A program made the position numbers and the translations under genes. A stretch of 35,151 bases of DNA from Chrysochromulina tobinii (lineage: Eukaryota). The notes below the pieces were generated by a model. The model was not told the origin of the DNA and ran no database searches. It worked only from the letters and a program-made list of their open reading frames with translations. The stretch lies in assembly GCA_001275005.1 (NCBI GenBank), contig JWZX01002534.1, positions 1-35,151 on the forward strand, read 5' to 3'. Below are positions 4,718 through 33,554 of the stretch, piece after piece (position 1 is the stretch's first letter; every line of letters starts with the position of its first letter).

Positions 4718-5120
4718 TCAGAACTCCTGCTTCTTCGCCGTCAGCGTGCCATTGGCGAAAACGAAGACGTTCATATTCTGGTACTGCAGCTGTGGCAGCT
4801 CTGCAAAGCGCTTCTGGCAAGAGCCGCTGTTGTGGCCAAAATTGCCCTTGAGGGCGATCATCTGCCACGGCGTCTCGAGGCCGATGGTGTATCTCTGGAC
4901 GAGCACACGCAGTTTCTGGTCGTCGTCGGCGGTCCAGGGCCGCCTGCTCACGGAAGTGCGACCATGGAAGAGGGTGAGCAATAGGTGAGACGTCGGACAA
5001 GGCACATTCGGTAAGGTAGTAAATTCACCCGTCCTCCGGCGCCCAGACAGTCTGTTCAGTCGGGGCCCGTTTGGCTTTGTCCAGCTTCTCTATGTCGACG
5101 ACGGCGCCCGTCTTCGACAT
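4718..5120 (-). CDS. Small single-repeat Myb/SANT-domain protein (~105 aa; exons 5120-5029, 4943-4718)
   Basis: An 85-nt GTGAAT...GAGCAG intron (5028-4944) joins MSKTGAVV...APEDG to RPWTADDDQKLRVLVQRY...PWQMIA...SCQKRF, matching the Myb W-x19-W pattern with a C-x-x-R-F third helix. Confidence 0.75.
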
Positions 5121-5313
5121 GGCAACGAACACCAGGAACGCGGGTGGCCCGACAGACACCGACCCGACGCAGGTGCCCGTGAAAGAGAAGAACTTCGACT
5201 TGCCTAATTCGTCCAAGTCTCTCAGTTCTAGCGCTCACATATTTATATTTTTTCTTCAGAACTCGAAACTTTTCCTGATCACTGTTTTCATCTTCCATTT
5301 TCACACTTTGCGC
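5121..5313. promoter_or_regulatory. Short divergent intergenic region, probable bidirectional promoter
   Basis: 193 bp between head-to-head ATGs (5120 minus, 5314 plus), with an AT-rich core (atttatattttttttc near 5240-5256) in a GC-rich background. Confidence 0.45.
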
Positions 5314-5955
5314 ATGTGGTTGCTCCTGTCGCAACTATTCGTACCGATCTCAGCGATGCGAGTGCTCTGCTTACACGGCAAGGGCGGCAGTGCTGCCTCA
5401 TTTCTCGACGACCTCCAGCCGCTGCGCAGCGCCTTGCCTGCAATCGAGTTCCAAACCATGGATGCACCAGGAGGCACGCGCTCGTGGTGGACATACCCGA
5501 GAGGCGAGCGCTCGTTTTCTGCGTCGTCCTTCAGCGGCGACGATGTAAGTATCGCTGCTGTCGAGGCTGAACTAGTCAAAGGCGGCTACGATGGCATCTT
5601 GGGCTTCTCGCAGGGAGCCATGTTGGCAGCCGTCGTTGCTGCGAGGAGCGCGCTGGGCCAAGGGCCGCCGGACTCGAAGCTCAGCCTTACTGTCTGCTGT
5701 GGTGCTGCTCTTCCAAAGCCGTTCGAGCCACTCTTTGCGGCGCTGCGCGAATCAGGCGGCGCGCCCGCCATTCGCTCGTTGCATTGCTTGAGCGCCGTTG
5801 ATACCATGAATCCGCCGGAGCTGGGCAAGGCTCTTGCCACCAGCTTTGGAACTTCCGCATCGCTGCTGTGGCACGATAATGGGCACACTTTGCCGCCGTC
5901 AGAGAGCCTCGGTGAGCTGGTCGCATTCTTCGAGGCGCATCCTGCGCCAGCATGA
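5314..5955 (+). CDS. Serine hydrolase, FSH1/OVCA2 family (alpha/beta hydrolase)
   Basis: MRVLCLHGKG start motif, nucleophile elbow GILGFSQGA, acid in SAVDTM and His in HDNGHTLP. A short hydrophobic leader precedes Met at 5356, which is an alternative start. Confidence 0.9.
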   Translation: MWLLLSQLFVPISAMRVLCLHGKGGSAASFLDDLQPLRSALPAIEFQTMDAPGGTRSWWTYPRGERSFSASSFSGDDVSIAAVEAELVKGGYDGILGFSQGAMLAAVVAARSALGQGPPDSKLSLTVCCGAALPKPFEPLFAALRESGGAPAIRSLHCLSAVDTMNPPELGKALATSFGTSASLLWHDNGHTLPPSESLGELVAFFEAHPAPA

Positions 5956-6150
5956 GTACTCAGCTATCCTCGGGATGCGTGAACCACGCCGGATGGAGAC
6001 CCGGCGCGTGAAAACGTACGAGACGCCCGAATAGGCTGTGCGCGACTACTAAATGTAATGTCCATGTCGCCCCCGTTACCTCTGGGATCATGTGGGAGCC
6101 GTCGTCCTTAGGAGCCCTGTTTCTATCGTTTCGGAGATGAAATCCGCAAG

Positions 6151-7221
6151 ATGGCGCAGCCTTACGCCTTCAATCTCCTGATTATCGCTCTTGCGCCATG
6201 CCCGACGACTCGATGGGATGTCACCGACGTACTCACAGCCCCGCGCAGCAGCAGACGCATGAGTTTCTTGCAATCTGTCCACCGCCCGAACGACGTGGAC
6301 ACAGAAGATGGGGAGATAGAGTGGATCCGTCAGAATGGCCAGTTGCTCATGGAGACGCTGCACAGCTGCGGGGCTATACACTTTCGAGGCTTTGCTTCGC
6401 CGAGAACAACAATCGGTCTCCGCCAATTCTGCGAGGCGCTGCCGCTGATTCCATGCAAGGATCCGCTCACTAGCGTCGGCGTGCGGGGCGCACTTGGGGA
6501 TGGTGTCTACAGGGCAGTGGACTCTGAGAGCTTGTCCAAAACCTTTATCGGATTGCACAATGACGCCACCTATCGTCTCGCCGCGCCATTTGCTGCATTT
6601 GCTTGCTTCCAAGCTGCAGACCGCGGCGGCGAGTTCCTCCTCGCAGATGGCCGCGAAGTTTTGAGTGCGCTCTCACCGAGTCTGCTGCAGCAACTTCACG
6701 ATCGAAGGTTGCGCGTGCGCGTGGCGGCGCTGCCGACTGAATGGCTGGCACATGGGGGGCCGATGCCTCCGACGGTGCGCACACTGCTCGCGTCCGTCAT
6801 CGAGGGTGTTATTGGCGCCGCGTTGGCCGTCGGTGTCCCTCTAGGGCTTGAGCTCGCTTGGAGCTCCGACGGGAAATTGCTCCAGATTCTCGAGCCCACC
6901 AAGTCTGCCTTCAACCGTCACCCAGTCAGCCGCGAGCCCACGTTCTTCAGCGGGGTGCACTCACAATCGAGATACCTTCAGCAGGCTCGCGCCGCCGATA
7001 TGTTTGGCGGCGTCGGCGTCACCGATGTCTTGGACGGCGATCTCGCGCCGCTCGAGATCGAGCTGCTCGACGAGATCGAGAGCGTGATGACGAGACTCAC
7101 GCGGCGCGTGCTGATGCAGCCGGGCGATGTCGTGCTGCTCGATAGCTATCAGACCCTTCACGGACGCGAGACATTCGAGGGCCCGCGCCGGCACGGGGTG
7201 CTGTGGCTTACCTCGCGGTAG
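6151..7221 (+). CDS. TauD/TfdA (clavaminate synthase-like) Fe(II)/2-oxoglutarate dioxygenase
   Basis: GAIHFRGF, HxD in IGLHNDATY, GGEFLLADGR, and distal His/Arg in QPGDVVLLDSYQTLHGRETFEGPRR. The N-terminus is hydrophobic. Confidence 0.88.
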   Translation: MAQPYAFNLLIIALAPCPTTRWDVTDVLTAPRSSRRMSFLQSVHRPNDVDTEDGEIEWIRQNGQLLMETLHSCGAIHFRGFASPRTTIGLRQFCEALPLIPCKDPLTSVGVRGALGDGVYRAVDSESLSKTFIGLHNDATYRLAAPFAAFACFQAADRGGEFLLADGREVLSALSPSLLQQLHDRRLRVRVAALPTEWLAHGGPMPPTVRTLLASVIEGVIGAALAVGVPLGLELAWSSDGKLLQILEPTKSAFNRHPVSREPTFFSGVHSQSRYLQQARAADMFGGVGVTDVLDGDLAPLEIELLDEIESVMTRLTRRVLMQPGDVVLLDSYQTLHGRETFEGPRRHGVLWLTSR

Positions 7222-7459
7222 ACAGTATCCTCCACGCGCAGCAGTCGGCCGACGACGCATGTCAGCCATCATGGGCTGTCGTAGAGTCATCAGTTGATTT
7301 GTAGAGAATACAGTAGGCTGTGTAGGGTTACCACCGGGCTATGATATTGGCACACATCACGTGGCAACACACATTAAGATGATTGTTCTCTCTCTCTATC
7401 TCAATCTCTAACTCGGTGTCTCGGACCGGACTAGGCCACGCTTCCTATGATCATTTATC

Positions 7460-9604
7460 TCACCAATAGTCGCGGAACGAATTGAAGTTGTCAAAACGGC
7501 GCAGCAAGCTCTGCGCGACCCTGGAGCGTTGCGTGGCACTCAGCCGGGCGCTGTCAAGAAGCACCTGCGCGTCTTGGAGCATTTCTCTGCGCACGATGCC
7601 CCGCAGCCACTGCGCACCCGTCTTCCGTAGCCGTTGCACACGGAAGACAATTTCGCCAACGTCGCCGAGCTCCATCGGCGTCACCTCGAACTGCGAGAGA
7701 GCATCGCGTTGGAAGCGCGGCACCGCGCCGGCGGCACGTTGGGGCGTCCACTCGGCGCCGATGAGCAGCGCGTCGATGGCGAGCACTTCGGCTTGCATCG
7801 TATCGAGCGGGTCGCGCAGTGCGCGGTCGGCGGAGCGTACCTTGCGCCAGCCCGTGCGGAGCAGCCAGAGCAGCGCGGACATGAGCATGAGCGCAGGCAG
7901 TGTGGCCATCAGCTGCATGTTGAAGTCGTTGCGCTTGAGCATCGAGTCAATCGCCTCGACCTCTTCCTCCATGAGCAGCCGCAACTGCTGCACCAGCAGC
8001 AGCATCGAGCGGATGAGCTGCCCATTGAGCAGGCTGCTCACGGGCGCCTTCACCTGGTTCTCGAACGCGATGGTGACCGCCTCCATGGATCCTTGGCCCG
8101 CGCGCCGTAGAGCCTCCTCTAGGCTTCGGTCCGAGGAGCTCGGATGCGTGTCGCGCACGAACTCCTGCAGCATGCGTGCGAGCGCGGCCTTGGTCTGTGC
8201 CACCTGCGCCTTATCGATCGTGCTCTCGTAGCCGTGGAAGAGTTCCCGAGCGATCCCTCCGAGGGGCTCCGTCACGTGCGTCGACCAGAATCGTCGCGCG
8301 TCGGCTGCGACCTTGATACTCGCTTTGATGGCGTCATGCCGTGCGGCGAGCAGCACGGGCAGCCAGTGGGCGTACCCGTCCACCAGTATCAGCAGCAGCG
8401 CCGCCCACACGAGCGAGTGGCGTGCGAACACGTTGGGCGGTAGCAAAGCCGGCGGCGGCCGCCCCTCCCGCACCGCTTTGCGCACCATCCAGAGGTCGTC
8501 CAGCGCGTCGCGTGTGGTGGCGACGAGCGTGGCGCGCCGCGACGCGAGCGGCTCCACGTCCACGCTGCCTCGCGGGAAAGGCTCCGAGTACAGGGCGTAC
8601 GGGCCCAGCCGGTGGAGCGTGGCAGCCGTAGCTCGCAGCTGTGACGCGACGCGCGCGCAGATGCGTAGCAGGTACTCGTGCTGCGTGCGGCTCGGCTGCA
8701 CATCCCACGGCATGGAGGCGAGCGGCGGGCCGCCCACCCACCGGCCCAGCTCCAGCCACTCGCCACCCGCCTCGCGCAGTGCCACGCGTAGGTCGTGCAG
8801 GGCGCCCGCGTGGCACGCGAGAGCGCGCTCCGACCGCAGCAGCGCGCGACGCCGAGTGCCCAACCCAATTCGCGTGAGCCGGCCTCCGAGCGGCTCGTCC
8901 AGCTCGCGGTTCGCCTGGCTCGGCGTGGGTACGTCGTCGCGTGACGCGGCGGGCAATGCACCGCCCTCCTTGTCATCTGACTCCCACTCATCCTCCAGCT
9001 CCCATCCATCCTCCGCCTTCTTGCCCTTTCTCTGCTGCCCCTTGGTCTCCTCGCCCGCCTTGCGCACGCTTGTCTCGTCGCCCGCTTTGCGCACACGCGC
9101 CTTGGGCGGCGGCGTCACGAGGCGCCGGAGCTGCGAGACGCCACGTGCCACGGCGTGGTTTGCCGCCAGCGAGGCCGAGGGCCCGGCGACACGTCGCCAG
9201 CGGAGCCGCACACGGCCGACCCGCTCGTACGCCTCGCCGAGCTCCTTGAGCATCCCTTCGATACAGCCCAGCTGCGATCGGCACAGAAGCCAGAGGGATT
9301 CATAGTCGGTTTGCTGCGTCGGCCATCTTCGGCTCTTATCTTCGGCCAAGCCATCAACCTTTAGCCGCGACAGCAGCTGCGCCAGCATGAACTCGCCGCG
9401 GCGCGTGTGCCACTCAGCGTGAGGGCTCTCGTGGCGAAGGGACGTGGTGATCTCGCGCAGCACCACCTCGCGCATAAATGGGGTGATGATCGGCGGTAGC
9501 GGTGCGCCTCCAGAATCAAGGCCGGTGGCGCGGTCGAACGCCAGCAAGAGCAGCAAAGCCACTGCTTCGCGGCGGCCGCGAGGTGAAGGCGAACCCATCG
9601 ACAT
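7460..9604 (-). CDS. NCA2/DGS1-like protein (nuclear control of ATPase 2 domain)
   Basis: The C-terminal half has the NCA2 pattern FWSTHVTEPLGGIAREL...LARMLQEF...FENQVKAPVSSLLNGQLIRSMLLLVQQ...IDSMLKRNDFNMQLMATLPA with two hydrophobic segments. Start taken at ATG 9604 (or 9598); the ORF is open to 9982. Confidence 0.85.
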   Translation of the reverse strand: MSMGSPSPRGRREAVALLLLLAFDRATGLDSGGAPLPPIITPFMREVVLREITTSLRHESPHAEWHTRRGEFMLAQLLSRLKVDGLAEDKSRRWPTQQTDYESLWLLCRSQLGCIEGMLKELGEAYERVGRVRLRWRRVAGPSASLAANHAVARGVSQLRRLVTPPPKARVRKAGDETSVRKAGEETKGQQRKGKKAEDGWELEDEWESDDKEGGALPAASRDDVPTPSQANRELDEPLGGRLTRIGLGTRRRALLRSERALACHAGALHDLRVALREAGGEWLELGRWVGGPPLASMPWDVQPSRTQHEYLLRICARVASQLRATAATLHRLGPYALYSEPFPRGSVDVEPLASRRATLVATTRDALDDLWMVRKAVREGRPPPALLPPNVFARHSLVWAALLLILVDGYAHWLPVLLAARHDAIKASIKVAADARRFWSTHVTEPLGGIARELFHGYESTIDKAQVAQTKAALARMLQEFVRDTHPSSSDRSLEEALRRAGQGSMEAVTIAFENQVKAPVSSLLNGQLIRSMLLLVQQLRLLMEEEVEAIDSMLKRNDFNMQLMATLPALMLMSALLWLLRTGWRKVRSADRALRDPLDTMQAEVLAIDALLIGAEWTPQRAAGAVPRFQRDALSQFEVTPMELGDVGEIVFRVQRLRKTGAQWLRGIVRREMLQDAQVLLDSARLSATQRSRVAQSLLRRFDNFNSFRDYW

Positions 9605-10149
9605 CACACAGGGGTTGACCTCAATAAATCTCGCGTTTCTCTCGTGAATTTGAATCGACGGGAAGTACGCGGAAGAATGTCGGACGCAGCCGAGCGCCAC
9701 GAGCGCCCGGGCGGCAGATGGCTGCCCGTGGCCGTCCTGCGTCCCTTTGCCCCGGCGCACCTGCCCGATGTGGAGTGCATCTCCCGCATGGCGGAGCTCA
9801 TGCGCCAGGTACGCGTCGAGCGGCGTGGCAGATGGCCCACTGCTTGTTGGTCCTGCCTCACCGCCCCGCTCGATCGTGTGACAACCCCGCTCACCCCCCC
9901 TCGTCACCTCGCCACCGCACCCGCGCCGCCATTCAGGACGGAGGTGTGTCCGTTGTGGACGCGCCAAGGGACGCGCATCCAATGAGCGGCCACCTGATCA
10001 TTGCAGCCTCTGGGGTAGGCCTTGTGGCCCCGATCGAGCTCTCGTGTCCAACGGTACTCTCGCGATGGGCACAGTGGGTCAAAGAACAGGTCGGCACCCG
10101 CTGAAAAACAGCGAGCAAACTCTACCGGGAGTGGAAGGAGAGGGCGGGT

Positions 10150-10500
10150 GGCATGGCGACGGTGCACAGCCGTCGGAAAGGTGGACGGGCGTGTGGCGGT
10201 CGCAGCGTTATTCGGCCATGTCGAGGGCCCACGTCGCGCGAAACCAGGCCAGGGCCCTTTCACCGAGCTATTGTTTCTCGCGCGAAACCAGGCCAGGGCC
10301 CTTTCACCGAGCTATTGTTTCTCGCCGCAGCGTTATTCGGGAATTCGGCCATGTCGAGGGCCCACGTCGTGCGAAACCAGGCCAGGGCCCTTTCACCGAG
10401 CTATTGTTTCTCGCCGTCGTTCCTGAAATGGAACGGAAGGGATACGGCCGGGCCATGCTGTCGCACGTGCACGGGGAAGCTTCACATGCAGGACGTGATC
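10150..10500 (+). pseudogene. GNAT (GCN5-like) acetyltransferase fragment broken by internal tandem duplications
   Basis: FTELLFLAVVPEMERKGYGRAMLSHV resembles GNAT motif A (R/Q-x-x-G-x-G). The 133 nt of duplicated sequence at 10282-10414 shift the frame. Boundaries are approximate. Confidence 0.6.
10201..10414 (+). repeat. Compound tandem repeat B-A-A-B'-A (A = 44 bp, three identical copies)
   Basis: gcgaaaccaggccagggccctttcaccgagctattgtttctcgc at 10238-10281, 10282-10325 and 10371-10414. B at 10201-10237 recurs at 10326-10370 with an 8-nt insertion. Confidence 0.97.
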
Positions 10501-11184: not shown

Positions 11185-11228
11185 GAGCATATAAACATGA
11201 AACTGTGCTCGCGAGGACGCGCATTTCG

Positions 11229-14200
11229 ATGGAGGCGTCGCCCTCCGAGCCGTCGCCGAGCTCGCCCGTCTTCGACGCGAGCGCGCCTGAGCCATCCAAG
11301 AAGAAAAAGTCGCGTGGCGCACGGCTTAGCAAGGCGGAGCGCGAGGCGAGGCGCGAGGCGCGAGAGGCGGCTGCCGTTGAGGATACGGCCGGGGCATCAG
11401 GAACGTTTGAGGTGCGGCGCAAGCGCCTGCAGCTGCTCGTGTCGCGCTCCGAGTGGGACGAGGCTGCAAGCCTGGGTGGCGAGTCGCTCCCTCTCGCGCG
11501 TGATCTTGTGCGAGCGCTCGTGAAGCTCAACCGTCACAAGCTGCTGACGCACTGTGCGGCACGGGCAGCACGCACTCTGCCCGTGGAGGCACTTGCTGAG
11601 CTTGTGCAAGAGGCACTTGACGAGGGCCGGCTGGCTGCGGCCGTGGCGCTCGCACGTGGTCTTGGCGTGCTCGAACGCTTCGCCTTTGCCGAGCACGCGC
11701 TCATCGCCTACGAAACGGGAGCGACGCAGGAGGCGGCGGACGCGCTGGGCAGCGAGCCGCAGCTGCAGCTGCGCACACTGCACGCGATGCTGGCGACATC
11801 GCGCTGCCTGCAGTTTGCGGTGCAGTACCTGCCCGCACTACGCCAGCTGCCCGCGCCCGATATGCCCACGCTCGAGCGCGTCGGAGAAGAGGCTCTCGCC
11901 GCCGCCGCCGCCGCCGCTGCCGCCTCGACGACTAGCGCCCAGGGCGGCGCCTCGGCCTCTTCCACAGCCTCGGCCTCTTCCACAGCCTCGGCCTCTTCCA
12001 CAGCCTCGGCCTCTTCCACAGCTCCGGCGGCGTCCATAGGCCTCGCCGCCGAGGTGCGTGCACGGCTCGAGGCGGCGCTGCGCGCGCGCTGGCCCGATTG
12101 CTCTGTGCATCTGTTTGGTTCGAGAGCCGTTGGCCTCGCGAGTGCGGCCTCGGACGTCGATGCATGCGTTCTGCTGCCCTCGATGCCCCTCGCGCACTGC
12201 CGCGACGCTGCGGGGCGCGCGCTCGTGCGCCCGCTGCTGCCGCTCGCCGCCGAGTGCGTGCGCGCATGCGCCGAGGTGAGCGGCCTGCATCTCGTGCCCA
12301 CCGGACGCACGCCGCTTCTCCGATTCGAGTTTGATGGCTCAACGGGCCTGTGCGCCTCGGTAGAGCTTTGTGTGAACAACACGGACGGCCTCGCCAACAG
12401 CGCCGTGATGCGCGAGCTGCTCGGCGCGGACACGGCGGGTACGTCGCAGCCGCTGCCCGCGCTGGCTGCCGCGGTCCGTCGATGGGCCCAGCAACGCCTC
12501 CTATGCAGCCTCCCTTCGACCCTCAACAGCTATGCGTGGACGCTCCTCGCTGCATCGACGCTCCAACAGCTGGGCGACTTGCCAGTGGTTGCGGGCTCGT
12601 CAGCTGAGTTTGCGGCACAGCTGTCGCCGCCCGCTCTGGCAGACGTGGCCATGGACGATGGAAGTGGGCACGCTGGCGCCGCTGGTGCACGCGAGGGAGC
12701 TGATGCGAACATCAACCACGCGAGCGACCGGGCGGACATGTACACGGCAAGGGAGCGTGCGTGGCGCGCGATGGCTGCGGCTTCTCTCGCTCCGAGTGGT
12801 GATGCGCCACGTGGCATGGCTGATACACTGCTCGACGGCATCCGCGCCGCATCCCTCGCAGGCACCTCGCCCTCTGCCGCCTCGTTGCCACCGGCACCGT
12901 CCATGCTTCCACAACCAAGTTTGGCAGCGCCACGGCCATCGGTGCCACTTCCGATTCCGCCGTCGCCGCCTCCGGCATCGACGCTGGCGGCTCCGGCGGC
13001 TTCGGCGTCGGCGCAGCGCGCGAGGGCCATCGGGTTATGGGTGTATCACTTCTTCCTGCTCTGGGGGTATGACTTTGCCTACCGACGACGCGTAGTCTCG
13101 CTGCGCCAGCCACACACGCTAACGAAGCTCGACAAGGCGGCGGCGGACGAGGCGTGGCCGCGCCGACGCGACGAGCAAGCACTGATGCTCGAGGACCCAA
13201 TTGAGACGCAGCGCGATCTCGGCCGTCTCGTAGGCAAGCACGCGCTCCAGGCTATCCGACTTGAGGCCGCCTGGGCGGCCATCCGTCTATCCGGGGGTGC
13301 CTCGCTCGAGCAGCTTTGTGAGCCGTTCGACTGGCGGTTACGCCCATACGCGAGCCTCCTCGGCCACGAGCGCCTCGCGCCATTGATGGCGCTGCGTGCG
13401 CTAGGCGGCGCGCCGCCTCTCTACGTGCACGATCAGCCCACCTGCGAGGCGATGCTCGTGTCCTTGCCGCGCGCACGCATTCTGGGGCTCGACTGCGAGG
13501 GTGAGCAGCTCTCACGGCATGGGCGGCTGTGCCTGCTCCAACTGAGTACCGACGCCGGCCAAATCTTCATCGTCGACATGCTTGCGCCGTGCGCCGCGCG
13601 GCTCGTCGATGCGCTCCGGCCGTTTCTCGAGTCCCCGCAGGTGCTCAAGGTGGCGCATGACTGCCGCAACGATGCCGACGCACTTTGGCACCAGCACCGT
13701 GTGCGCCTACGTCATGTCTTCGACACCCAAGCCGCCTACGCCGTCCTCAAGCGCAACCGCCGAGCAGGCGGCATCGGCGGCGGCATCGGCGGCGGCGAGG
13801 GCGTCGGCAGCAGCAGGAGCCTCGGTGGCGGCGACTCAAATTACGCTCCCAATCGGAGCCCCGAGTCGAGCGATTGTGTGTCTCTGGGTTCACTCGTGCG
13901 CCGGATGCTGGGGCACGCCGCCGCCGCCAAGGGCAACATTAGCGCGCAGATGAGCGAAGAGCCTAGCTTCTGGGCGCGTCGGCCGCTGCGCCCGTCGCAG
14001 CTACGCTACGCCGCCTCAGATGTGGCGCATCTGCTGCCGTTGCATGCGCGTCTACTGCTCGAGATGGACTTTGTGGCGGCCGGCGGCTGGCAGAAGCATC
14101 GAGTGGCATGCACAGCGACGGGAGCGGCGTCGGCGGAAGGGGCATTGATGATGTGTGCGTCTGCGTCGCGGGCGTCTGCGATTGGGGCGGATGAGGCCAT

Positions 14201-15440
14201 GGTGGCGGGGCCACCCTCGGCCGCCGAGGCGGCGGCCGCTGAGAGCGAGCGCCTTCGTGCAGCGGTGACAGTCCGGTCGGAAGCGTACCTGCGCGTGCGT
14301 GAGCAAACGTATGGCGTCGCGAGAGCCGAGGACATCCAGCTGCACGCCGTGCTCCCGGGGCTCGTGACCAATGTGTCGCGCTTTGGCCTCTTTGTGCAGG
14401 TGGCCGAGGGGGTGGTGGGGCTCGTTGGGATCCCAGAGCTCCTTGGTCCGTCGGTCGAGGAGGCAGCGGCGATGATGACGACTACGACGACTACAATGAG
14501 GGCCGATGTGAGCCCGCCGCCTCGGCTGCGTGCGCTCAGAACGGTGCTAGCGCCGTATGACGTGGCGCAGCCGGTGACCGTGCGTGTGATCAGTCTGCGC
14601 CACATGGGAGGACGGTTGCAGGTCGGGCTCTCGCTGCATCTCGCACGCCTCAACCCGACGCTTGAGAACCCCGAACAGCTGACACAGGGGCCGACGAGCG
14701 AGGACGGTGGCGGCGGCGGCAGCGGCGGCGGCAGCGGCGGCAGCGGCGGCGGTAGCAGCGGCGGTGGCAGTGGTGGCGGCGTCCCTGAGTGGTTCTGGGG
14801 GCGCGTGCTGCTCGTGGAGTCGCGCCGTGCGACCGTTGGCCTTGAGCTGACCCAACCTTTTGAGCTGCCCCTCGCTTTTGTAGTCGATGCGGCCACGGGC
14901 GAGCGCGCGGCCGGCACGGCGTCGGCTGCAGCGAGCGCGTCGGCCGGTCGCACGCCCGGCGGCCTGAGGCTTTGCGTGCAGGTCGGCCAGCTCCTTCGTG
15001 TGACGGTGGCGCGCCGTCTTCCCGGACGCGTCCAGCTTGGCACGCGGCTTGTGAGAGCAGTGGCCGTGCTGGAGGAGAGGACGGAAACGGCTGAGAAGGC
15101 GGCTCAACTCGGCCTGTCAACCGCGGGGTCGCTGTCGGCAGCACGGGTGTCGCGGGACCAACGCTCGCCAGCAGCAAATGCGGCTGAAGACGAGATGGAT
15201 GGCGATGATGAGGCGTGGAGCGCCGACGCTGCGATGGCGCGCATTGACGCGGGCGTCAAGCGCAGCTGGTTGGCGACGTGGGAGGAGGGCAGCGACGACG
15301 ACGACGACGACTTTGAGGGTGAGGGCGAGGACGAGGACGAGAGCGATTGCGAGGACGCTGACGAGGCAGAGGAGGAGGCTGATGGTCGCCGCAGCCGATC
15401 GAAGCGCAGGCGGTTGGTGGCGAGTAGCAGCGCTGTGTGA
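11229..15440 (+). CDS. Fusion protein: helical N-domain + URT1/Cid1-like terminal nucleotidyltransferase + DEDDy 3'-5' exonuclease (EXD1/Egalitarian-like) + S1 RNA-binding domain(s)
   Basis: Single 1403-aa ORF. NTase: LFGSRAVGLASAASDVDACV, VELCVNNTDGLANS, TLNSYAWTLL. PAP-associated/NRM: FFLLWGYDFAYRRRVVSLR...LMLEDPIETQRDLGR. Exonuclease: LGLDCEG, KVAHDCRNDA, VFDTQAA, WARRPL...RYAASDV. S1: GLVTNVSRFGLFVQVAEGVVGLV...VTVRVI. Acidic tail and basic NLS-like ends. Confidence 0.9.
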   Translation: MEASPSEPSPSSPVFDASAPEPSKKKKSRGARLSKAEREARREAREAAAVEDTAGASGTFEVRRKRLQLLVSRSEWDEAASLGGESLPLARDLVRALVKLNRHKLLTHCAARAARTLPVEALAELVQEALDEGRLAAAVALARGLGVLERFAFAEHALIAYETGATQEAADALGSEPQLQLRTLHAMLATSRCLQFAVQYLPALRQLPAPDMPTLERVGEEALAAAAAAAAASTTSAQGGASASSTASASSTASASSTASASSTAPAASIGLAAEVRARLEAALRARWPDCSVHLFGSRAVGLASAASDVDACVLLPSMPLAHCRDAAGRALVRPLLPLAAECVRACAEVSGLHLVPTGRTPLLRFEFDGSTGLCASVELCVNNTDGLANSAVMRELLGADTAGTSQPLPALAAAVRRWAQQRLLCSLPSTLNSYAWTLLAASTLQQLGDLPVVAGSSAEFAAQLSPPALADVAMDDGSGHAGAAGAREGADANINHASDRADMYTARERAWRAMAAASLAPSGDAPRGMADTLLDGIRAASLAGTSPSAASLPPAPSMLPQPSLAAPRPSVPLPIPPSPPPASTLAAPAASASAQRARAIGLWVYHFFLLWGYDFAYRRRVVSLRQPHTLTKLDKAAADEAWPRRRDEQALMLEDPIETQRDLGRLVGKHALQAIRLEAAWAAIRLSGGASLEQLCEPFDWRLRPYASLLGHERLAPLMALRALGGAPPLYVHDQPTCEAMLVSLPRARILGLDCEGEQLSRHGRLCLLQLSTDAGQIFIVDMLAPCAARLVDALRPFLESPQVLKVAHDCRNDADALWHQHRVRLRHVFDTQAAYAVLKRNRRAGGIGGGIGGGEGVGSSRSLGGGDSNYAPNRSPESSDCVSLGSLVRRMLGHAAAAKGNISAQMSEEPSFWARRPLRPSQLRYAASDVAHLLPLHARLLLEMDFVAAGGWQKHRVACTATGAASAEGALMMCASASRASAIGADEAMVAGPPSAAEAAAAESERLRAAVTVRSEAYLRVREQTYGVARAEDIQLHAVLPGLVTNVSRFGLFVQVAEGVVGLVGIPELLGPSVEEAAAMMTTTTTTMRADVSPPPRLRALRTVLAPYDVAQPVTVRVISLRHMGGRLQVGLSLHLARLNPTLENPEQLTQGPTSEDGGGGGSGGGSGGSGGGSSGGGSGGGVPEWFWGRVLLVESRRATVGLELTQPFELPLAFVVDAATGERAAGTASAAASASAGRTPGGLRLCVQVGQLLRVTVARRLPGRVQLGTRLVRAVAVLEERTETAEKAAQLGLSTAGSLSAARVSRDQRSPAANAAEDEMDGDDEAWSADAAMARIDAGVKRSWLATWEEGSDDDDDDFEGEGEDEDESDCEDADEAEEEADGRRSRSKRRRLVASSSAV
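11949..12020 (+). repeat. Coding minisatellite, 18 bp x4 (ASASST)4
   Basis: gcctcggcctcttccaca repeated four times perfectly, just after a (gcc)n poly-Ala run. Confidence 0.95.
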
Positions 15441-15984: not shown

Positions 15985-18900
15985 TCAGTTAGTGTTCAGC
16001 TGGGCATTGCTGAGGAAGTGCGAGCCGCCGTTGCACCGCCAGCCATCCCCCTCACGATGCCAGTCAAAGCCGGCGGGGCAGAGGCACATCTCCTTGATTT
16101 TCTCGCGCACGGCGGCATCGATGCGGTGCTGCTCCGTCTCCGCCTCCTTGATCGCCTCGCGCATCGACGAGAGCACCGCGCCCACCTGCGCACGTAGTTC
16201 GTCGATGATGTCGCGCGCGTCTCTGCCCGTCTTGCTGCAGACCAGGCCCAAGATATCTGGTGGGAAGTCCTTGGAGCCTTCGCAGCCGCTCAGCTTCGTC
16301 ACGAGCTCGCGGCGCTTTGCGTCCGACTCGTCATAGCCAAGCTCCACGCAGGCCTCCTGAAGCGCCGCCGCGACGTCGGGGCTGCAGTCGCCGCATGAGT
16401 CCTTGGCCTCGATTTCAATGATTCGGATCTCCTCGCGCTCCTCCTCCAGCTCACGCGCCGGCGGCCCACCCTCGCGCATAGGCGGCAGTAAGTCGTCGTA
16501 ATCCTCGGCGCCGCTGTTGATGGTGGTGCTCATGCTAGACCCCATCGAGAAGGCCTTCTCGAGATGCGGCGGCGACGGCCGATGTCTGTCGAACGAGTCC
16601 ATCGCGCTGCGCGCGTCTTCCACGGTGAACGAGGGCTGGCCCTCATCGACGCCTCGGACGGCCGCGGCCGCGAGCCTCTGCGCGCGCATACCCGCGAGCT
16701 CGTCGTACACCCACTCGGCGTCGCGGGCGTTGGCCCATCCCGGCCGCTTCTGGATGCGAGCCAGCCGCTCGCGCAGGACCGCCTGGGCGTCCTTGGAGAA
16801 TGCAAAGCCCTTCCGGTTGCAGCGCTCGAGTAGGTACGCGACGACGTCGTCGGCATCCCAGTCCGGCAGTGTGATCCGCTGCTTGAAGCGCGAGCGGAAG
16901 CCGGGATTGGCGCCGGCGAGCATCGCATCCATTTCCTTTTCGTAGCCGGCGAGCACCACGATGCTCTTGCCCTTGTATTGAGGCGCGGAGAGATTGAATG
17001 TGAGCTGATCGACGGCCTCTTTGGCGTACAGCCCGCCGCGCATGCCGCCGCCGCCGAGGTTGTATGCTTCGTCGATGAATACGAGGCCGCCGGGTGCCGA
17101 CGCCATGAGCTCATCCACCTTCGTCTTCGTGTGACCGAGGTACTCGCCCTGCAAGTTGAGTGCCGACTGCTCAGCGAAGCCGTCGCCAACGAGCACGCCC
17201 TTTGCGCGCAGCCACTTGCCAAGCACGCGCGCAAAGGTAGTCTTGCCCGTGCCCGGGTTGCCGACGAAGACGTAGTTGCCCACTTTGTCGGCAGGCATCG
17301 AAGGGTCGAGCTCGCCGTCCGTCTGCAGCTGCGCGAGCCGCGCAGCGAGTGCGTCGAAGTGCGCCCTGAGGCCGTCGGCCTTGAAGAGAGTCGCCATCTC
17401 TTCCTCCACCTCGTGCAGCAGAGAGGCCGTCTTGGCCGTGCCGCCGCTCGCGCCCTCGTGGAGCCCGAGGTCAGCGAGAGTGATGCTGCGGGCGTCGCCC
17501 CGCCCCGCGAGGGACTCCTTGACACGGCCCATGAGCGAGTTGACGGCGCCCGCGTTGCCAAAGTGCGGCTTGATGCGCTCCCGGATGAGCAGATTGAGCG
17601 CCGCCTTGCAAACGGAGCGTTTGGCCCAGCGCAGGCCGGCGGCAGTGGCGGCGAGGTGCAATAGCTCCTCGAGCTGCGAGTCGGTGAAGTAGGCAAAATG
17701 GAAGGCCGACTCAGGCGAGAAGCGGCGCATGAGCCCCGGATTGACCTCGCGGAGCATCTTCATCATCTCGTCCTCGTACCCGAGCAGCAACACAGCGATG
17801 TCCTCGCCCGGCGAGTTGTGAACCTTGGAGACGATCGTGTCGATGGCCCGCGCACCGTAGAGGCCTTCATGCAGCCCGTAGGCCTCGTCGATCACGAGCA
17901 CCTTGCCTTTGCAGATCTCGAGCAGTGCCGCTGTCTTCTCCTCGGTGCCCCCCGCCGCCGACGCAATCAAGTCCGACGGGGTGCGCACCTCAACCGAGCC
18001 GTCGCTCAAGTAGCCAAGGCCCTTAAGGATGCGCCCGTACACCTTGGCGATCGTCGTCTTGCCGGTGCCAGGGTTGCCGAGGAAGAGCCGATTGAGGGGC
18101 ACGAGGTGCGGGGGCTCGCAATTGAGCTCGCGCTGGTAGTTGATCTGCGCGAGCTTGATCAGTGTTCGCGCCTGCTCCTTGACCGCCTCGAGCCCGACCT
18201 GCCGATCGAGCTCGGCGAGAGCAGCCTTCAGATCGGGCACATGCTCGACCTCTGGCGGCGGGCCGAGCACGTCGACCACCCTCATGAGGAGCTGCTCCGG
18301 GTCGTACTTGGATGGCGCGCGCGTCGGCATGAGCGTGTTATCGTCGCCAATCGCCGTACTAGTCGCGCCATGCGCGCTGGCCTTGCGAAAGGCCACCAGG
18401 GTCACCTTCGACCGTGCGCCCGAAAGGTGCTTCGCCAACCAAGTCTTGACGACCCCAGGCATCGGTGCGCTCGAGGGCACCTTCGCTGCGAGTGCCTCGG
18501 CAATTTCAAGCACGCTCATGCCCGCGGTGATGCCCTGGCTCTTGTACCAACTGCCCGAGCCTGTACCCTCGAGCCTGTAGTAGCCACCGGAATCGTCTAG
18601 ATCGGGAGGCTTGTCGCTCGCTTGAGCATAAATCGAGTGCGTGGCAGCCTGCCCGCCGGACGCATCGAGTGCGAGCTGTAGCTGGGCCCCGTCGCTGCCG
18701 TGAAATGCTTTGAAAAGCTTCTCTGGCCAGTCCGACGACGCTTTGCTGGTTGAGCCTGGAGGCTTGAGCGCACCCAAGACCTCCTTGCCATCGAGCGTGA
18801 GCTGCCCGTCCACGATGCGGATTATGTCGCCAGTCGCCAGCCGGCCGTCTTTCGCAGCGGGCGAGCCTGCCTTGAGAGAGGACACACAGAGGCCGCCGCC

Positions 18901-21900
18901 GCCAATCATGGCGTCCACCGCCTTTCCCTGTATGCCATACGAGCCGTCAGCAGCGGCGTGCAGCTCGATCTCGAGCTTCGTCACGCCTGGCCGCACGAAC
19001 AGGTCCTTGGAGTCGAGCAGGTAGACAGGGCCAGTTCGGCCGCCCAGCTGAACGTGCACGGCGGCGGCATCACTGACGTTGAGCACGAGACCCTCGAGGC
19101 GGCCGTCAGCCGCATGGCCGGCTGCATTTTGCTTTCCGTTCGCCTCAGGAGCGAGGGTCTGCTCGATGTTTTCGACGTAATCGGCCGAAGTGTACCAGGT
19201 ACGCCCGCCAAAGTTGACCTGCAGGTCGTCGCTCACGCACACGACAGTGCCCTCCATGCCGACGACGTCGATGTCCACCCCCTGGCTCTCAATCCCTGGC
19301 AGTGCGCGCACGCGGTCGCCCTCCTTTGGCTTCGCTGGAACTTTTGGCGTCTCCTGAGGGTCCTTCGCGTCCGCCTTGGAGTGCATGACCTCCATCTCAG
19401 AAGACTTGCAATTCCATCCTGTAGTGGTGCCTGCGAAGTCAACCTTGAGGTCGCCGTCGGAGTCGATTCTAGTGACGACCCCAACCATGCCATGCTTGAC
19501 ACTGCCCCAGCCGTATGCTGGCCTAGACACGCTCTGCTTGACGCTTACCCGTGCGCCCACGCACAGCTTGCCGCCCGGCGCCATCGTGGGCGTCGTGGGG
19601 CACACTGCGTGTTCAGGTTTGGCGCAGCACGTGGTGCACAGCCCGCAGTGTTCACAGCCACCCGGGCCCGTCTGCGACGACGGGCCGTGCATCCCGCACT
19701 TGTGGCAGCGCACCGAGCCGCTCCAAGCCTTTTGCGTGTGCACTGCCCGCTGCGGCCGCGGCAGGATACTCTCATGGCCCGGCACGAGTGCCGGATCGAG
19801 GAGCACGGGGCAGCCCACACAGAGCTCACAGAGCTTGAGCGGCTGCGCACCCTCAACCGAGGCGGCAGGCACCTCAGGCGGCTCTACGGGGCCATGTCCC
19901 TTGCGCCGACCTTTTGCGCTCATCTTGGTCCCCTTGGTCGCCTTGGTCGCCTTGGTCGCCTTGGTCACATTGGGCGGCGGCGGCTGCGGCGGCGGCGGCG
20001 GCGGCGGCGGCAGCGTCTGGCTTGTGGCGAGCTCATGGACGCGCTTAGCAGCCTGACGATCCTTCTCGATGCGACCGAGAGCGCGTGGGTACACCTCCTC
20101 GAAAAGGTTCCGCACGTCGCGCGCGTTGGCAAAGCCTTTGACGCCGCGGCGACGGGCGATGCGGCGCGACGCAACCTCCGCAACGTGCGGCTCGAGCCGC
20201 CACGAGTGCTTCTGCGCGATCTCGAGCCAGATCTCCTTGAGCTCGGGCTGTGTGAAGTCCTCAAAGATCAGGTCGCGGAAGCGGCTCTTCATGCCCGGGT
20301 TGAAGCTGTACAGCTTTTCCTCGATGTCGTCCTTGTAGCCCGCGAAGAAGATGGAGAGCCGGTCGCGCTGGTCCTCGGCGGCCGTCATGAGCAGGTTGAT
20401 GATGGCCTTGCCCGCCGAGTTGGACCCCGGATCGAGAGAGTAAGCCTCATCGATGAAGAGAATGCCATCTTTCGCCTTGTCGATTAGGTCAGGCACATCG
20501 GCCGGCTTCATCTGGAGCAGCTTCTCACCGGTCGTCTCGATGAACGCTGTGCCCGTGCGCAGGCCAAGCTCGTGGAGCAGCTTGCCGAGCAGCCGCGCCA
20601 CGGTCGTCTTGCCCGTGCCCGGGTTGCCCATTAGCGAAAAGTTGAGCGATGTAACGACGCGCATCGACTCGGGCAGCCGCCTTTCGGCAAGCACCCGAGT
20701 TTGCAACTGGTACGCTACCGCCTTGACCTGGTGCAGCCCCCGGAGCGCCATCAGCTCGTCGAGGGCTTTTGATTCGGAATCACCGGCCTTCGTCTTCGCC
20801 ACTGACGCCTTGTGGCTGGTACCTTTCTGCTGCTCGTCTTTTGACGCGTGGCGGGAGGGCACAAGTACCAGCGGCGGCGCATCCGGAGGCGTTGGTACTG
20901 CGGTGATCTCTAAGATGCGCTTGTTCGTGTCCGTGATGAGCAGGTGCAGCTCAGCCTCAGTCAAGAAGCTTTCCCCGTGTTCCACGAAGGCTGACTTGAC
21001 GCCGGTCATCGGCGCGTCCAGCCGCTCGGCGTACAGCGCAAGGCACGAGTACAAATGCGCTTGGCCTGGCCGGAAGTCACTAGCCTTGTACACGCCGCCG
21101 TGATCGAGGCGCGCGAGCACCAGCAGAAGGAGCGGATCGAGCATCCTGTCAGTCACCATCGCCCCATCCGCGACGTAGCCATCAAGGATCTCGCTGGCTT
21201 CGGTGCGATAGGGACTGGCCTCGTCCGATGCGAGCGCAAGTGCGTACAGCAGATCGACCGCCGACGCCGCTGCCTGCATCGCCACCACGGAGCCACGGAT
21301 CATCTCGCGCGCCTCGTCGAGAGCGTCCGCCGCCGTCTCCCACGCACCTGCATGCAATGCAGCCAAAGCGCTCTCGACCTTGCGCCGCACCTCAGCGGGG
21401 AGCCTCGAAACGTCGGGCACGAATGGGGGGCGCTGTGGGGATGCAAGTCCGAGAAGGAGCTTGTCGACGGCTGCGCCATTCATCTTCAGACGCGTCGCAA
21501 GGTAGCATCGCGCCGCACGCACGCGGTGCGCGCGTACTAAAAGCGCTGCTGCGTCATGCGCTTGCGGCTCGTCGGCAGCACCCAGCTCAGCAGCGTTCGC
21601 GAGGGCACCACCGAGCGCAAAAACGGCCATGTCATCGTCAGACTGGGCGGCAACCACTAGGTGAGAGACATGGAGCCACGCCTGTTTGCGGCGAAGCTCG
21701 GTCAGTTGGGGCTGTGCCTCTTGCAAGAGGGCCCAAGAGCGCTCGTGTACCTTGCGCTTGCGCAGCCGCCGTAGTAGTAGAAAGAAGCGCACTGCCGCGT
21801 GCATCATGTGGCACGCTGCCCGAGCACTCCGTGAGCGGCGCAGCCGCCACCGACGCGTCGTGGACGTGATGTGGCGCGCGGCCCCCAAGTAGGCAGGTGG

Positions 21901-24858: not shown

Positions 24859-25145
24859 CTTAGCGAGCGCGCGCGCAAGAGTCTTCGGAACCACAAGCTC
24901 GGTTTTTTCAACTCGGCCTCACCCCCCTTGGTTTTTTCCAGGACCCACGCGAATCAGATCGCGCGGGGCTCGAGAATTCAGTTGACCCCCCCCCGCACAC
25001 CCAACCTCTTTCAACAGGTCTCATAGCCTCGACGCTTCGTCTTCGTCAAAAAGTTGGAAGCCACTCCACCCTGAACGGCGTACTGCTGCACGTGCACAGT
25101 ACACACAAACGAAACCGAGCTTCTGGAGAACAGCCCGACGTCCTC

Positions 25146-26762
25146 TCACAACGGGATGTTGCCGTGCTTTCGCCAGGCGCGCTCCTGCCGCTTGTCGCTG
25201 AGCAGCTCCAAGCTCTCCCAGACGAGCTGGCGCGTCTCGCGAGGCGCGATGACCGCATCGATGAAGCCGCGCTGCGCGGCCACGAGCGGGTTGGCAAACT
25301 TAGTCTCATACGTAGCCGTGTTCTCGTCGACGTTCTTGCCACGGAAGATGATTTCGACGGCGCCTTTGGCGCCCATGACGGCGATTTCGGCGGAGGGCCA
25401 CGCGACGTTCACATCGCCGCGAAGGTGCTTGGACGCCATGACGTCGTACGCGCCGCCGTACGCCTTGCGCGTGATCACAGTGACCTTCGGCACGGTCGCT
25501 TCCGCGTAGGCGTACAGCAATTTCGCGCCGTGCCGGATGACACCACCGTGCTCCTGGCCGGTGCCGGGCAGGAAGCCGGGTACGTCTACGAAGGTGAGAA
25601 GGGGGATGCCGTACGCGTCGCACGTGCGCACAAAGCGCGCCGCCTTGACCGCCGCGTTGATGTCGAGGCAGCCCGCGAGCTCTTGCGGCTGGTTGGCTAC
25701 GATACCGACCGTTCGGCCGCCTACCCGGCCAAAGCCAGTGAGGATGTTCTTGGCGTAGTCGGGCTGGAGCTCGAAGAAGGAGCGCTCATCGAGCACGCGG
25801 CGCACGAGCGCGCCCATGTCGTACGGCACGTTCGGGTCTGCGGGCACGATGCGATCGAGAGCCTCGTCGGCGCGGCTGATCGGATCCTCCGTGGGCAAGA
25901 CGGGCACCGGTTGGCGGTTGGAGGAGGGCAGGTACGACATGAGCTGACGTGTTGTGGCCATCGCGGCGACGTCGTTCGGGCACGCGAGGTGCGCCACGCC
26001 CGACGTGCGCGTGTGTGTACGCGCGCCGCCCAGCGCCTCCGCCGACACCTCCTCGTTGGTGACGGTCTTGACAACGTCTGGGCCGGTGACGAACATGTAG
26101 CTCGTGTGCTCGACCATCACAGTGAAGTCGGTCAAGGCGGGCGAGTAGACGGCGCCGCCCGCGCACGGGCCCATGATGATCGACAGCTGCGGCACCACGC
26201 CCGAAGCGTCCACGTTACGCTGGAACACCTCGGCATACCCAGCGAGGGAGCCCACTCCTTCCTGGATCCGAGCGCCGCCAGAATCGTTGAGGCCGATGAC
26301 GGGCGCGCCGACGGCGAGTGCCTTATCCATGATCTTGCAAATCTTCTCAGCATGTGCCTCGCCGAGGCTGCCCCCGAAGACGGTGAAGTCCTGCGAGAAG
26401 ACGAAGACCGTCCGCCCATGGATCTTGCCGTGGCCGGTCACCACGCCGTCGCCCGGAGGCCGATTGCTTCCCATATCAAAGTCTTCGCAACGGTGGGTCT
26501 TGAGCTTGTCGTATTCGCGGAAAGTTCCCTCGTCGAGCAGCAGCGTCAGCCGCTCCCGCGCCGTCAGCTTGCCCTTGCGGTGCTGCGCCTCAATCCGGGC
26601 CTCACCGCCGCCAAGCTTCGCCGCCACCTCCGCTTCCTCGAGCCGTGCCCGCACTGAGGCCGCCTTGGCAAGCGTCTTGGGTGGAGGGGGCAACGAGCAG
26701 AGGCTGCGCGGCAGCAGCGCGTGGCGTGCGAGCCTGGGACGATCGATGACGAGACGTAGCAT
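25146..26762 (-). CDS. PCCB: Propionyl-CoA carboxylase beta chain (carboxyltransferase), mitochondrial
   Basis: [77 protein letters not shown] and terminal WRKHGNIPL. Arg-rich presequence from ATG 26762. Confidence 0.96.
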
Positions 26763-26893
26763 CGATCGGCGTCCGCAGAGGGCTTGCGGCTCGGCCGCGG
26801 TTGCGTCAATTTTCATCGATAGTTCCGATTTCACAACGACTAAGTTTTTCGTGTGCGTGCACATGCGACACTGAGTGTACCTCATGCATCTTC

Positions 26894-27571: not shown

Positions 27572-27707
27572 AGGGGTCCCGAGAGCGCTTGTATCGACGC
27601 GCACACCGCTAGCGCTTTGGAGACGAGTGAATCCACTTTGTGTGAACATGCTGCATGAACATGCATTTCTCTTCCGCTGGACCCCAACAGTACAAATGAA
27701 CAGAATC

Positions 27708-32171: not shown

Positions 32172-32385
32172 GTAAATGACCTGGTGACCTGTGCCGCTGG
32201 GCTGTGGGAATTCAACTCACGTGATTCACGTTCACGTTAAATTGCCCTCTCGTGAGAATTCAACTCTAGTGATCGGAGAGCGCCGAAGGGCTGATCATGT
32301 GGGGAAGCTTGGGCTGAGTGATGTGTGAAACATCTCAGTGTGGAACCATTGGCATTGTGGGTGCCACTACTGTGGAACCCAATTG

Positions 32386-33482: not shown

Positions 33483-33554
33483 TAGGAAGGTGTGACACAC
33501 AGAGTGAGTCGCGGCGGGTAAGTGAGTCGCGCGGGGATCCCCCGCGAGTCGCGA

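What the first reader, a model, noticed from the sequence alone, without database searches (positions are those of the whole stretch)
11229..15440. Single-chain RNA 'tail-and-trim' enzyme: TUTase fused to an intact DEDDy exonuclease and S1 domain(s)
Seen: one stop-free ORF holds a Pol-beta-type NTase (GS at 12117-12122, DxD at 12153-12161) and a PAP-associated/NRM region closely paralleling plant URT1. It then has a DEDDy exonuclease with all catalytic positions present (DCE 13491-13499, HDCRND to 13673, YAASD 14007-14021), and one clear plus one degenerate S1 domain. Established: TUTases (Cid1, URT1, HESO1, TUT4/7) and 3'-5' nucleases (Dis3L2, Nibbler/MUT-7, EXD1) normally act as separate proteins, and C. 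elegans RDE-3/MUT-2 and MUT-7 work in the same Mutator silencing pathway. Inference: this is a Rosetta-stone fusion coupling 3' tailing to trimming or decay, possibly in small-RNA, transposon or antiviral surveillance. I do not know a described protein with this architecture.
Basis: partly seen in the sequence, partly recalled or inferred. Interest (0 to 1): 0.9.

Follow-up and report, generated by a model that had tools for sequence, protein, structure and literature searches.

The report
RNA tailing enzyme fused to trimmer
One algal gene joins an RNA-tailing enzyme domain, an intact 3'-5' exonuclease domain and an S1 RNA-binding domain in a single protein that is also conserved in water moulds, and it likely lengthens and trims RNA ends in one chain, a job usually split between separate proteins.

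Summary
Real and conserved. The stop-free ORF 11229-15440 (1403 aa) has every motif at the stated coordinates. Its order is: basic N-terminal motif, helical domain, Cid1/URT1-type nucleotidyltransferase, Egalitarian/EXD1/TbRND-type DEDDy exonuclease, S1. The same order occurs in other haptophyte-clade proteins (42-46% identical), in 9 named Saprolegniales oomycete species, and in one unassigned eukaryote, so it is not a mis-assembly. Phytophthora, Pythium and downy-mildew orthologues end after the transferase. One AlphaFold model is compact (pTM 0.83); a second, on a shallower alignment, is not (0.54). Best reading (about 0.5): a nuclear single-chain enzyme that adds short pyrimidine-rich tails and trims them. 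Six literature searches listed no paper whose title or abstract opening describes this fusion.

The parts
11229..15440 (+). ORF, 1403 aa, no intron seen
   Evidence: listed RNA contig pieces cover 3533 of 4212 bases
11298..11342 (+). Basic N-terminal family motif ending in SKAER (aa 24-38), likely a nuclear localisation or RNA-binding signal
   Evidence: found in 33 of 208 stored proteins, all family members, haptophyte-clade and oomycete; function inferred
11406..11873 (+). All-helical N-terminal domain (aa 60-215), no known family
   Evidence: pLDDT 94-97; 46-53% identity to six relatives; with the basic motif, HHalign haptophyte vs peronosporalean 96%, vs Saprolegniales 45%; without it 1-2%
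12042..12590 (+). Pol-beta nucleotidyltransferase palm: G297-S298, D309, D311, E379, N390
   Evidence: VIA-align Z 30.7 to TUT7, rmsd 3.2, 335 aligned
12621..13019 (+). Low-complexity Ala/Pro insert, poorly conserved, predicted disordered, present unspliced in RNA contigs
   Evidence: 11-21% identity; pLDDT under 50 in part; 399 of 399 bases under listed RNA pieces
13023..13340 (+). PAP-associated domain with nucleotide-recognition motif D656-x-x-E659-x-x-R662
13419..14078 (+). DEDDy 3'-5' exonuclease of the Egalitarian/EXD1/TbRND type: D755, E757, D815, Y927, D931; Gly-rich insert at 13755-13871
   Evidence: VIA-align Z 22.3 to TbRND, rmsd 2.6, 225 aligned
14256..14600 (+). Linker helix and S1/OB domain (Pfam match 14340-14441)
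   Evidence: homologous to the oomycete (HHalign 96%) and alveolate-type stand-alone exo-S1 (94%) regions
14796..15053 (+). Conserved block, possible second S1/OB domain (unconfirmed)
   Evidence: relative P0087 has a weak PCB_OB hit (E 0.0095) and P0167 has two S1 stretches
15258..15437 (+). KR-x-W motif, acidic tract and basic tail, likely a nuclear localisation signal
   Evidence: same layout in 7 other haptophyte-clade C-termini of the 10 printed; function inferred

Best explanation
The gene encodes one protein that joins a Cid1/URT1-type nucleotidyltransferase, a DEDDy exonuclease with all five catalytic residues and an S1 domain, and it likely works in the nucleus as a single-chain enzyme that would add short, probably U/C-rich tails to RNA 3' ends and trim them back. 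Shown: one ORF, conserved domain order, conserved active-site residues, matching predicted folds. Inferred steps: (1) the basic termini take it to the nucleus; (2) the helical domain and S1 hold a structured or stalled RNA end; (3) the transferase adds a few nucleotides, with Arg662 relaxing the strict U preference as in CutA; (4) the tail gives the exonuclease a single-stranded foothold; (5) trimming either sets the mature end of a non-coding RNA or starts its decay. This is the logic of the trypanosome RET1 with DSS1/RND and of TRAMP with Rrp6, placed in one chain. The substrate is not known.
For: Both enzyme domains are kept at similar levels: 54-64% identity to five complete haptophyte-clade orthologues, against 3-23% in the inserts. 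All five DEDDy residues are present in 15 of the 18 rows of A3 that hold any exonuclease; two of the others are cut short and one is degenerate. GS, DxD and a third acidic residue are present in 26 of 26 rows with a transferase. The fusion is present in 9 named Saprolegniales species and one unassigned eukaryote. The AlphaFold model of aa 55-1130 has pTM 0.83 and mean pLDDT 81, which suggests a fixed domain arrangement. TbRND, a close solved relative of the exonuclease, is an active U-tail trimmer, and RET1 uridylation stimulates DSS1 (PMC7797062, abstract and introduction). CutA has Arg at the same motif position, and Cid1 carrying the CutA cluster adds about 50% U and 30-40% C (PMC5689010 and PMC7498324, passages). 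One RNA contig bridges the transferase-exonuclease linker (X15, 13289-13487).
Against: No activity, substrate or localisation was measured, and no localisation predictor was run. The closest exonuclease relative, Egalitarian, keeps all five residues, yet mutating them does not affect RNA binding or function (10.1101/2025.08.03.668247, passages). Peronosporalean orthologues (10 of 19 hits) lack exonuclease and S1, so the transferase can stand alone. The Prymnesium parvum model P0008 lacks ExoI and ExoIII motifs. The second model, of oomycete P0017 on 9 sequences, has pTM 0.54; no inter-domain error map could be seen for either model. The third carboxylate is Glu in 9 of 26 rows including this protein, and the position matching Cid1 Lys197 is Gln. 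The motif predicts specificity poorly: several U-adding enzymes lack the His (10.1101/422972, passages). No RNA contig spans the whole ORF, and RNA libraries can hold DNA.
Confidence: 0.5

Rival explanations
1. The transferase is the working enzyme and the exonuclease-S1 half is mainly an RNA 3'-end binding module, as in Egalitarian and EXD1; it selects or holds substrates and trims little.
For: Egalitarian is the best exonuclease match (E 7e-21 single sequence; 1e-45 profile), and its catalytic residues are dispensable. The module is absent in peronosporalean orthologues and degenerate in the P. parvum model.
Against: All five residues are kept across haptophyte-clade, oomycete and unassigned members (29 of 34 fused proteins, near-copies included), whereas EXD1 has lost them. 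TbRND of the same subfamily is active (PMC7797062).
Confidence: 0.2
2. One reading: it works in small-RNA silencing, transposon control or antiviral surveillance, like RDE-3 with MUT-7.
For: Known tailing enzymes and DEDDy nucleases act on small RNAs (own knowledge); EXD1 acts in the piRNA pathway (passage). The patchy distribution would fit a conflict-related gene.
Against: Nibbler/MUT-7 is a distant match (E 4e-9) and no Mut7-C domain was found. The neighbours scanned are metabolic or unrelated genes. No viral copy of the fusion was found. Orthologues follow host groups in the transferase tree.
Confidence: 0.15
3. Both domains are active but uncoupled: the fusion only co-localises two enzymes, and may have arisen more than once from a free transferase and a free exonuclease-S1 gene.
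For: Free exonuclease-S1 proteins exist in Vitrella, Chromera and relatives and free transferases in Peronosporales. The three fused groups do not join in the free exonuclease trees. A transferase tree with all fused forms in one clade is not rejected (p-AU 0.083).
Against: Shared N-terminal motif, shared DxxExxR and the same domain order. One clade of fused exonucleases is not rejected and scores slightly better (p-AU 0.50 on 43 rows). pTM 0.83.
Confidence: 0.1
4. In this lineage the transferase is weak or dead (Glu at the third carboxylate, Gln for a phosphate-binding Lys) and the protein is an exonuclease with a transferase-like RNA-binding scaffold.
For: E379 and Q421.
Against: GS, DxD, N390, Y435 and the recognition motif are unchanged in the rows that reach them; the palm is as conserved as the exonuclease. 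Glu at the third position is tolerated in some active transferases such as TENT5 (recalled, not checked).
Confidence: 0.07

Closest known systems
Arabidopsis URT1, S. pombe Cid1, human TUT4/7 (terminal uridylyltransferases)
   Same: Palm and PAP-associated fold (Z 27-31); GS and DxD motifs; URT1 is the best sequence match (E 1.7e-18).
   Different: His of DxxExxH is Arg; third Asp is Glu; extra helical N-terminal domain; exonuclease and S1 in the same chain.
Fungal CutA (C/U-adding enzyme; PDB 6YWN)
   Same: Arg at the base-selecting position (PMC7498324); second-ranked structure after TUT7 by Foldseek.
   Different: CutA's cluster is ExxNxxR and its E551 and N554 also matter for C preference (PMC5689010); here it is DxxExxR. 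The solved CutA chain matched only the transferase part.
Drosophila Egalitarian / EXD1
   Same: Closest exonuclease sequences; DCEG, HDCRND and YAAxD as in Egalitarian.
   Different: No Egalitarian winged-helix domain; followed by S1; fused to a transferase. EXD1 is catalytically dead.
Trypanosoma brucei RND with RET1 and DSS1 (MPsome)
   Same: A DEDDy enzyme of the same subfamily trims U tails made by a TUTase (PMC7797062; Z 22.3).
   Different: Separate mitochondrial proteins; TbRND uses zinc fingers, not S1.
TRAMP (Trf4) with Rrp6; Drosophila TRUMP (Tailor with Dis3L2)
   Same: Tailing coupled to 3'-5' trimming or decay (TRAMP recalled; TRUMP from abstract start and passages of 10.64898/2026.03.27.714668).
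   Different: Multi-protein complexes. Trf4 has DxxDxxN; Rrp6 has HRDC; Dis3L2 is an RNase II-family enzyme.

Membership tests
Non-canonical terminal nucleotidyltransferase (Cid1/TENT type) | Pol-beta palm with hG[GS] and DxD, plus PAP-associated domain | tested here: met
Non-canonical terminal nucleotidyltransferase (Cid1/TENT type) | Third catalytic aspartate | tested here: inconclusive
   Glu379 here; Glu in 9 and Asp in 17 of 26 family rows
TUTase / poly(U) polymerase (Cid1, URT1, TUT4/7) | DxxExxH cluster in the nucleotide-recognition motif | tested here: not met
   DxxExxR here and in 63 of 66 motifs read; His in two outgroup proteins and one Phytophthora short form
TUTase / poly(U) polymerase (Cid1, URT1, TUT4/7) | Preference for UTP in tailing assays | not testable with these tools
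   needs TRAID-seq or 3'-RACE-seq
CutA-type C/U-adding enzyme | ExxNxxR cluster | tested here: not met
   Arg matches; first and middle positions are Cid1-like D and E
Non-canonical poly(A) polymerase (Trf4, GLD-2) | Cluster ending in Asn (DxxDxxN, ExxDxxN) | tested here: not met
DEDDy 3'-5' exonuclease, RNase D-like | Four acidic residues plus ExoIII Tyr on the RNase D fold | tested here: met
   D755, E757, D815, Y927, D931; Z 22.0 to RNase D, rmsd 2.0, 193 aligned
DEDDy 3'-5' exonuclease, RNase D-like | Exonuclease activity | not testable with these tools
   Egalitarian shows that intact residues need not be used for the known function
Egalitarian | N-terminal winged-helix repeats (PF23713) | tested here: not met
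   no hit at E up to 0.1; present in Egalitarian hits
MUT-7 / Nibbler / EXD3 | Close exonuclease similarity and Mut7-C domain | tested here: not met
   Nibbler E 4e-9 against Egalitarian 1e-45; no Mut7-C hit
MUT-7 / Nibbler / EXD3 | Helical N-terminal domain of the Nibbler type | tested here: inconclusive
   the helical domain was barely covered by the fold search and was not folded alone; no sequence hit
Rrp6 / RNase D | HRDC domain after the exonuclease | tested here: not met
   S1 in that place; no HRDC hit
S1/OB RNA-binding domain (second copy) | Profile or fold match of aa 1190-1275 | tested here: inconclusive
   region lay outside the folded stretch

The most novel reading that the evidence does not exclude
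A template-independent RNA polymerase with its own proofreading exonuclease. One rigid chain would pass an RNA 3' end back and forth between a C/U-adding site and a DEDDy site, with S1 as the clamp, to write a tail of fixed length or sequence on a specific nuclear RNA. It would be an old enzyme shared by haptophytes and oomycetes and cut in half in the Phytophthora lineage.
Probability: 0.2. Interest if true: 0.85.

Novelty: new variant of a known kind. Interest (0 to 1): 0.62.

Why it matters
How a tailing enzyme hands RNA to a 3'-5' nuclease is normally studied in multi-protein complexes (TRUMP, TRAMP with the exosome, MPsome). A natural single chain with both sites intact makes that hand-over testable with one purified protein and two point mutants. 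Nature also supplies the truncation control: Phytophthora, Pythium and downy-mildew orthologues lack the nuclease half. The conserved DxxExxR motif is a further natural test of how these enzymes choose U, C or A. RNA 3'-end metabolism in haptophytes and oomycetes has had little study (own knowledge). The limit: coupling of tailing to trimming is a known principle, and no activity is shown.

Tried and rejected
Mis-assembly or chance fusion: rejected. Relatives at 42-46% identity keep the order. A DNA contig spans 11993-13795 with no difference, and locus L001 is 99.99% identical over 16,209 bases; these two may come from the window's own sample and are not independent.

Inserts as read-through introns: not supported. 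In-frame GT..AG pairs exist (23, 1, 10 and 3 candidates in four inserts), but listed RNA pieces cover those inserts fully. The Ala/Ser run and the Gly/Ser run lie at repeats that the tool skips and have almost no cover, which shows nothing. The one joint in RNA contigs (13812 to 15289, 21-letter side) also stands in the DNA run and looks like a repeat artefact. A second read lay-over with other runs and silent flanks was not obtained, so DNA carry-over in the RNA runs is not excluded.

Viral origin: no relative in viral contigs (138 pattern matches, none confirmed); phage and BFVD searches gave only exonuclease-type matches. Prokaryotic genome contigs were not scanned.

A separate exonuclease-S1 gene in Peronosporales: none among the 20 hits, but that search scores only the 7993 candidates sharing most words, so absence is not shown.

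Family of the helical domain: no usable hit in the ESM Atlas, PDB sequences or Pfam.

A test of one clade on the 144-row exonuclease set did not finish in three runs; the 43-row subset was chosen by me after seeing the first tree. Ten near-duplicate or partial rows were dropped before and eight were listed for dropping.

No genome is held for the window, so paralogues and RNAi genes of the host were not checked. The search for H-to-R data in XTUT7 and PUP-3 returned mostly irrelevant papers. Earlier-findings look-ups by sequence and place were empty.
Full report
Observation. The + frame 11187-15440 is open, with the first in-frame ATG at 11229, giving 1403 aa. The other five frames carry 12-40 stops. 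Pfam finds the transferase palm, PAP_assoc and DNA_pol_A_exo1 above their cut-offs, and S1 below it in the whole protein but above it when scanned alone. The best solved relatives by sequence are Egalitarian for the exonuclease and URT1, CutA and Cid1 for the transferase.

Is it one gene? A DNA contig covers 11993-13795 without a difference, and L001 repeats the region at 99.99%; both may share the window's source. Independent support comes from homologues. One search returned 7 proteins: one at 91% and four at 42-46% identity with transferase, PAP_assoc and exonuclease, one cut short inside the exonuclease, and a Prymnesium parvum model with a degenerate exonuclease. In three metatranscriptome runs the listed contig pieces cover 3533 of 4212 ORF bases (217 further pieces were not shown). 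They include the low-complexity inserts unspliced, and one piece bridges the transferase-exonuclease linker. No piece spans the ORF, and DNA in those libraries is not excluded.

Host. No genome is held. In the transferase tree the protein lies in a fully supported clade with P. parvum and Prymnesium sp., so a haptophyte host is inferred. The runs that hold the DNA or RNA are mixed-culture and freshwater metagenomes.

Distribution. The HMMER search of 1.84 billion representatives (best 150 listed, 51 scanned with Pfam, all scanned with my own domain profiles) and a profile search extended the family. Full fusions occur in Aphanomyces euteiches, A. cochlioides, A. invadans, A. stellatus, A. astaci, Saprolegnia diclina, S. 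parasitica, Achlya hypogyna and Thraustotheca clavata, and in an unassigned Logan protein, P0167. Ten of the 19 hits are 583-626 aa proteins from Phytophthora, Plasmopara, Peronospora, Pythium and two unnamed sources. They share the N-terminal motif, helical domain and transferase, and end before the exonuclease. Free exonuclease-plus-S1 proteins occur in Vitrella, Chromera and unnamed relatives.

History. A basic motif ending in SKAER occurs in 33 of 208 stored proteins, all family members. With that motif the N-terminal regions of haptophyte-clade and peronosporalean proteins align at 96% probability and those of haptophyte-clade and Saprolegniales proteins at 45%; without it both fall to 1-2%. 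Fused Saprolegniales and short peronosporalean transferases are sisters (SH-aLRT 95; 92/87, unstarred). This favours a fused ancestor with loss of the nuclease half in Peronosporales, but the alternative is not rejected (p-AU 0.083). The fused exonucleases do not group in free trees, whose backbone is weak; one clade is not rejected (p-AU 0.50 on a 43-row subset). Single origin is the simpler reading and is not proven. The outgroup sample for the transferase was small.

Active sites. Of 28 rows in alignment A3, 26 hold the transferase; all keep GS, DxD and N390, and the third carboxylate is Glu in 9 (including this protein) and Asp in 17. The recognition motif is DxxExxR in 63 of 66 proteins where it could be read, near-copies included. 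Cid1 and URT1 have His there and CutA has Arg. PMC5689010 (passages and whole Discussion) ties DxxExxH to U, Asn-ending clusters to A and ExxNxxR to C preference; Cid1 given the CutA cluster adds about 50% U and 30-40% C. PMC7498324 (passages) shows Arg557 contacting the incoming base. 10.1101/422972 (passages) warns that several U-adding enzymes lack the His. So a relaxed, pyrimidine-leaning specificity is an inference, and 'TUTase' is not established. Table 1 of PMC5689010 and the supplements of these papers were not seen and may list enzymes with DxxExxR. All five DEDDy residues are present in 15 of 18 rows with an exonuclease. By profile the domain is closest to Egalitarian, then EXD1 and TbRND, and far from Nibbler. 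TbRND is an active U-tail trimmer (PMC7797062, abstract and introduction). [quoted passage not shown] Both enzyme domains are 54-64% identical to five complete haptophyte-clade orthologues, against 3-23% for inserts.

Structure. AlphaFold2 on aa 55-1130 with 28 sequences gave mean pLDDT 81 and pTM 0.83, with low confidence only in the inserts and the end. A pTM this high over four domains suggests a fixed arrangement, but the model of oomycete P0017 on 9 sequences reached only 0.54, and I could not view inter-domain error or run the controlled complex prediction. VIA-align gave TUT7 Z 30.7, TUT1 30.5, GLD-2 30.2 and CutA 30.1 (tied) for the transferase, and TbRND 22.3, RNase D 22.0 and Egalitarian 21.7 (tied) for the exonuclease. 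Each of the 50 listed chains is either transferase-like or exonuclease-like. The helical domain was barely covered and has no assigned family.

Mechanism. I favour (0.5) a nuclear single-chain tail-and-trim enzyme. Nuclear location rests only on conserved basic termini and an acidic tract. The transferase would add a short U/C-rich tail to a structured or stalled 3' end held by the helical and S1 domains; the exonuclease would use the tail as a foothold to set a mature end or start decay. Rivals: exonuclease-S1 as a binding module (0.2), small-RNA or defence role (0.15), uncoupled or convergent fusion (0.1), dead transferase (0.07).

Novelty. Six searches listed no paper whose title or abstract opening describes this architecture; I read listings only, one search listed 30 of 4,453, one search listed 20 of 192 and one search listed 25 of 75, and most subscription journals are not in the library. 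The one paper holding all terms uses 'single polypeptide' for RNase II enzymes, not for a fusion. Database names are uninformative. Unchecked notes from this scan report TUTase fusions to Dis3L2, a different nuclease family, in Naegleria and another eukaryote; if right, tail-and-degrade fusions have arisen more than once, which makes the principle less singular and the coupling more credible. Verdict: a real, conserved, apparently undescribed variant of a known kind of system. Interest 0.62.

Noticed in passing
window 15985-24918 (-): A 2977-aa stop-free frame with several AAA ATPase stretches, MIB_HERC2, SH3_15, PDZ and an F5/8 type C domain; an odd multi-AAA architecture, convergent with the fusion gene.
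   Followed up: no
window 10210-10414: Three overlapping copies of a 72-nt repeat (72-99% alike) about 0.8 kb upstream of the ORF.
   Followed up: no
window 11190-11199: TATAAA followed by an out-of-frame ATG at 11197, 32 nt before the in-frame ATG; the out-of-frame ATG lies in the frame that ends at 11523. Listed RNA pieces begin at 11201 and 11239, though contigs cannot show a start.
   Followed up: partly
P0182 (Phytophthora nicotianae, short form): The only family member read with His at the base-selecting position, where 63 of 66 motifs have Arg; a natural change towards the Cid1 type.
   Followed up: no
P0008 (Prymnesium parvum): Gene model keeps transferase and S1 but lacks the ExoI and ExoIII motifs and has odd insertions; either a wrong splice model or real decay of the exonuclease.
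   Followed up: partly
P0172 (Aphanomyces astaci): A 2104-aa model joins kinase domains in front of the 860-aa fusion; probably merged gene models.
   Followed up: no
P0023, P0028, P0029, P0057, P0081, P0194: Free exonuclease-plus-OB/S1 proteins of Vitrella, Chromera and unnamed relatives; some have lost the ExoIII Asp.
   Followed up: partly
P0046 cluster (ENA/JGI, 426 aa): A further transferase with DxxExxR and no exonuclease, from an unassigned lineage.
   Followed up: no
window 5023-9997 and 25146-34055: Neighbours with Pfam hits: FSH1 hydrolase, TauD dioxygenase, NCA2, carboxyl transferase, weak PMSR, VTT domain; 27708-30158 (-) is an 816-aa frame without a hit.
   Followed up: no
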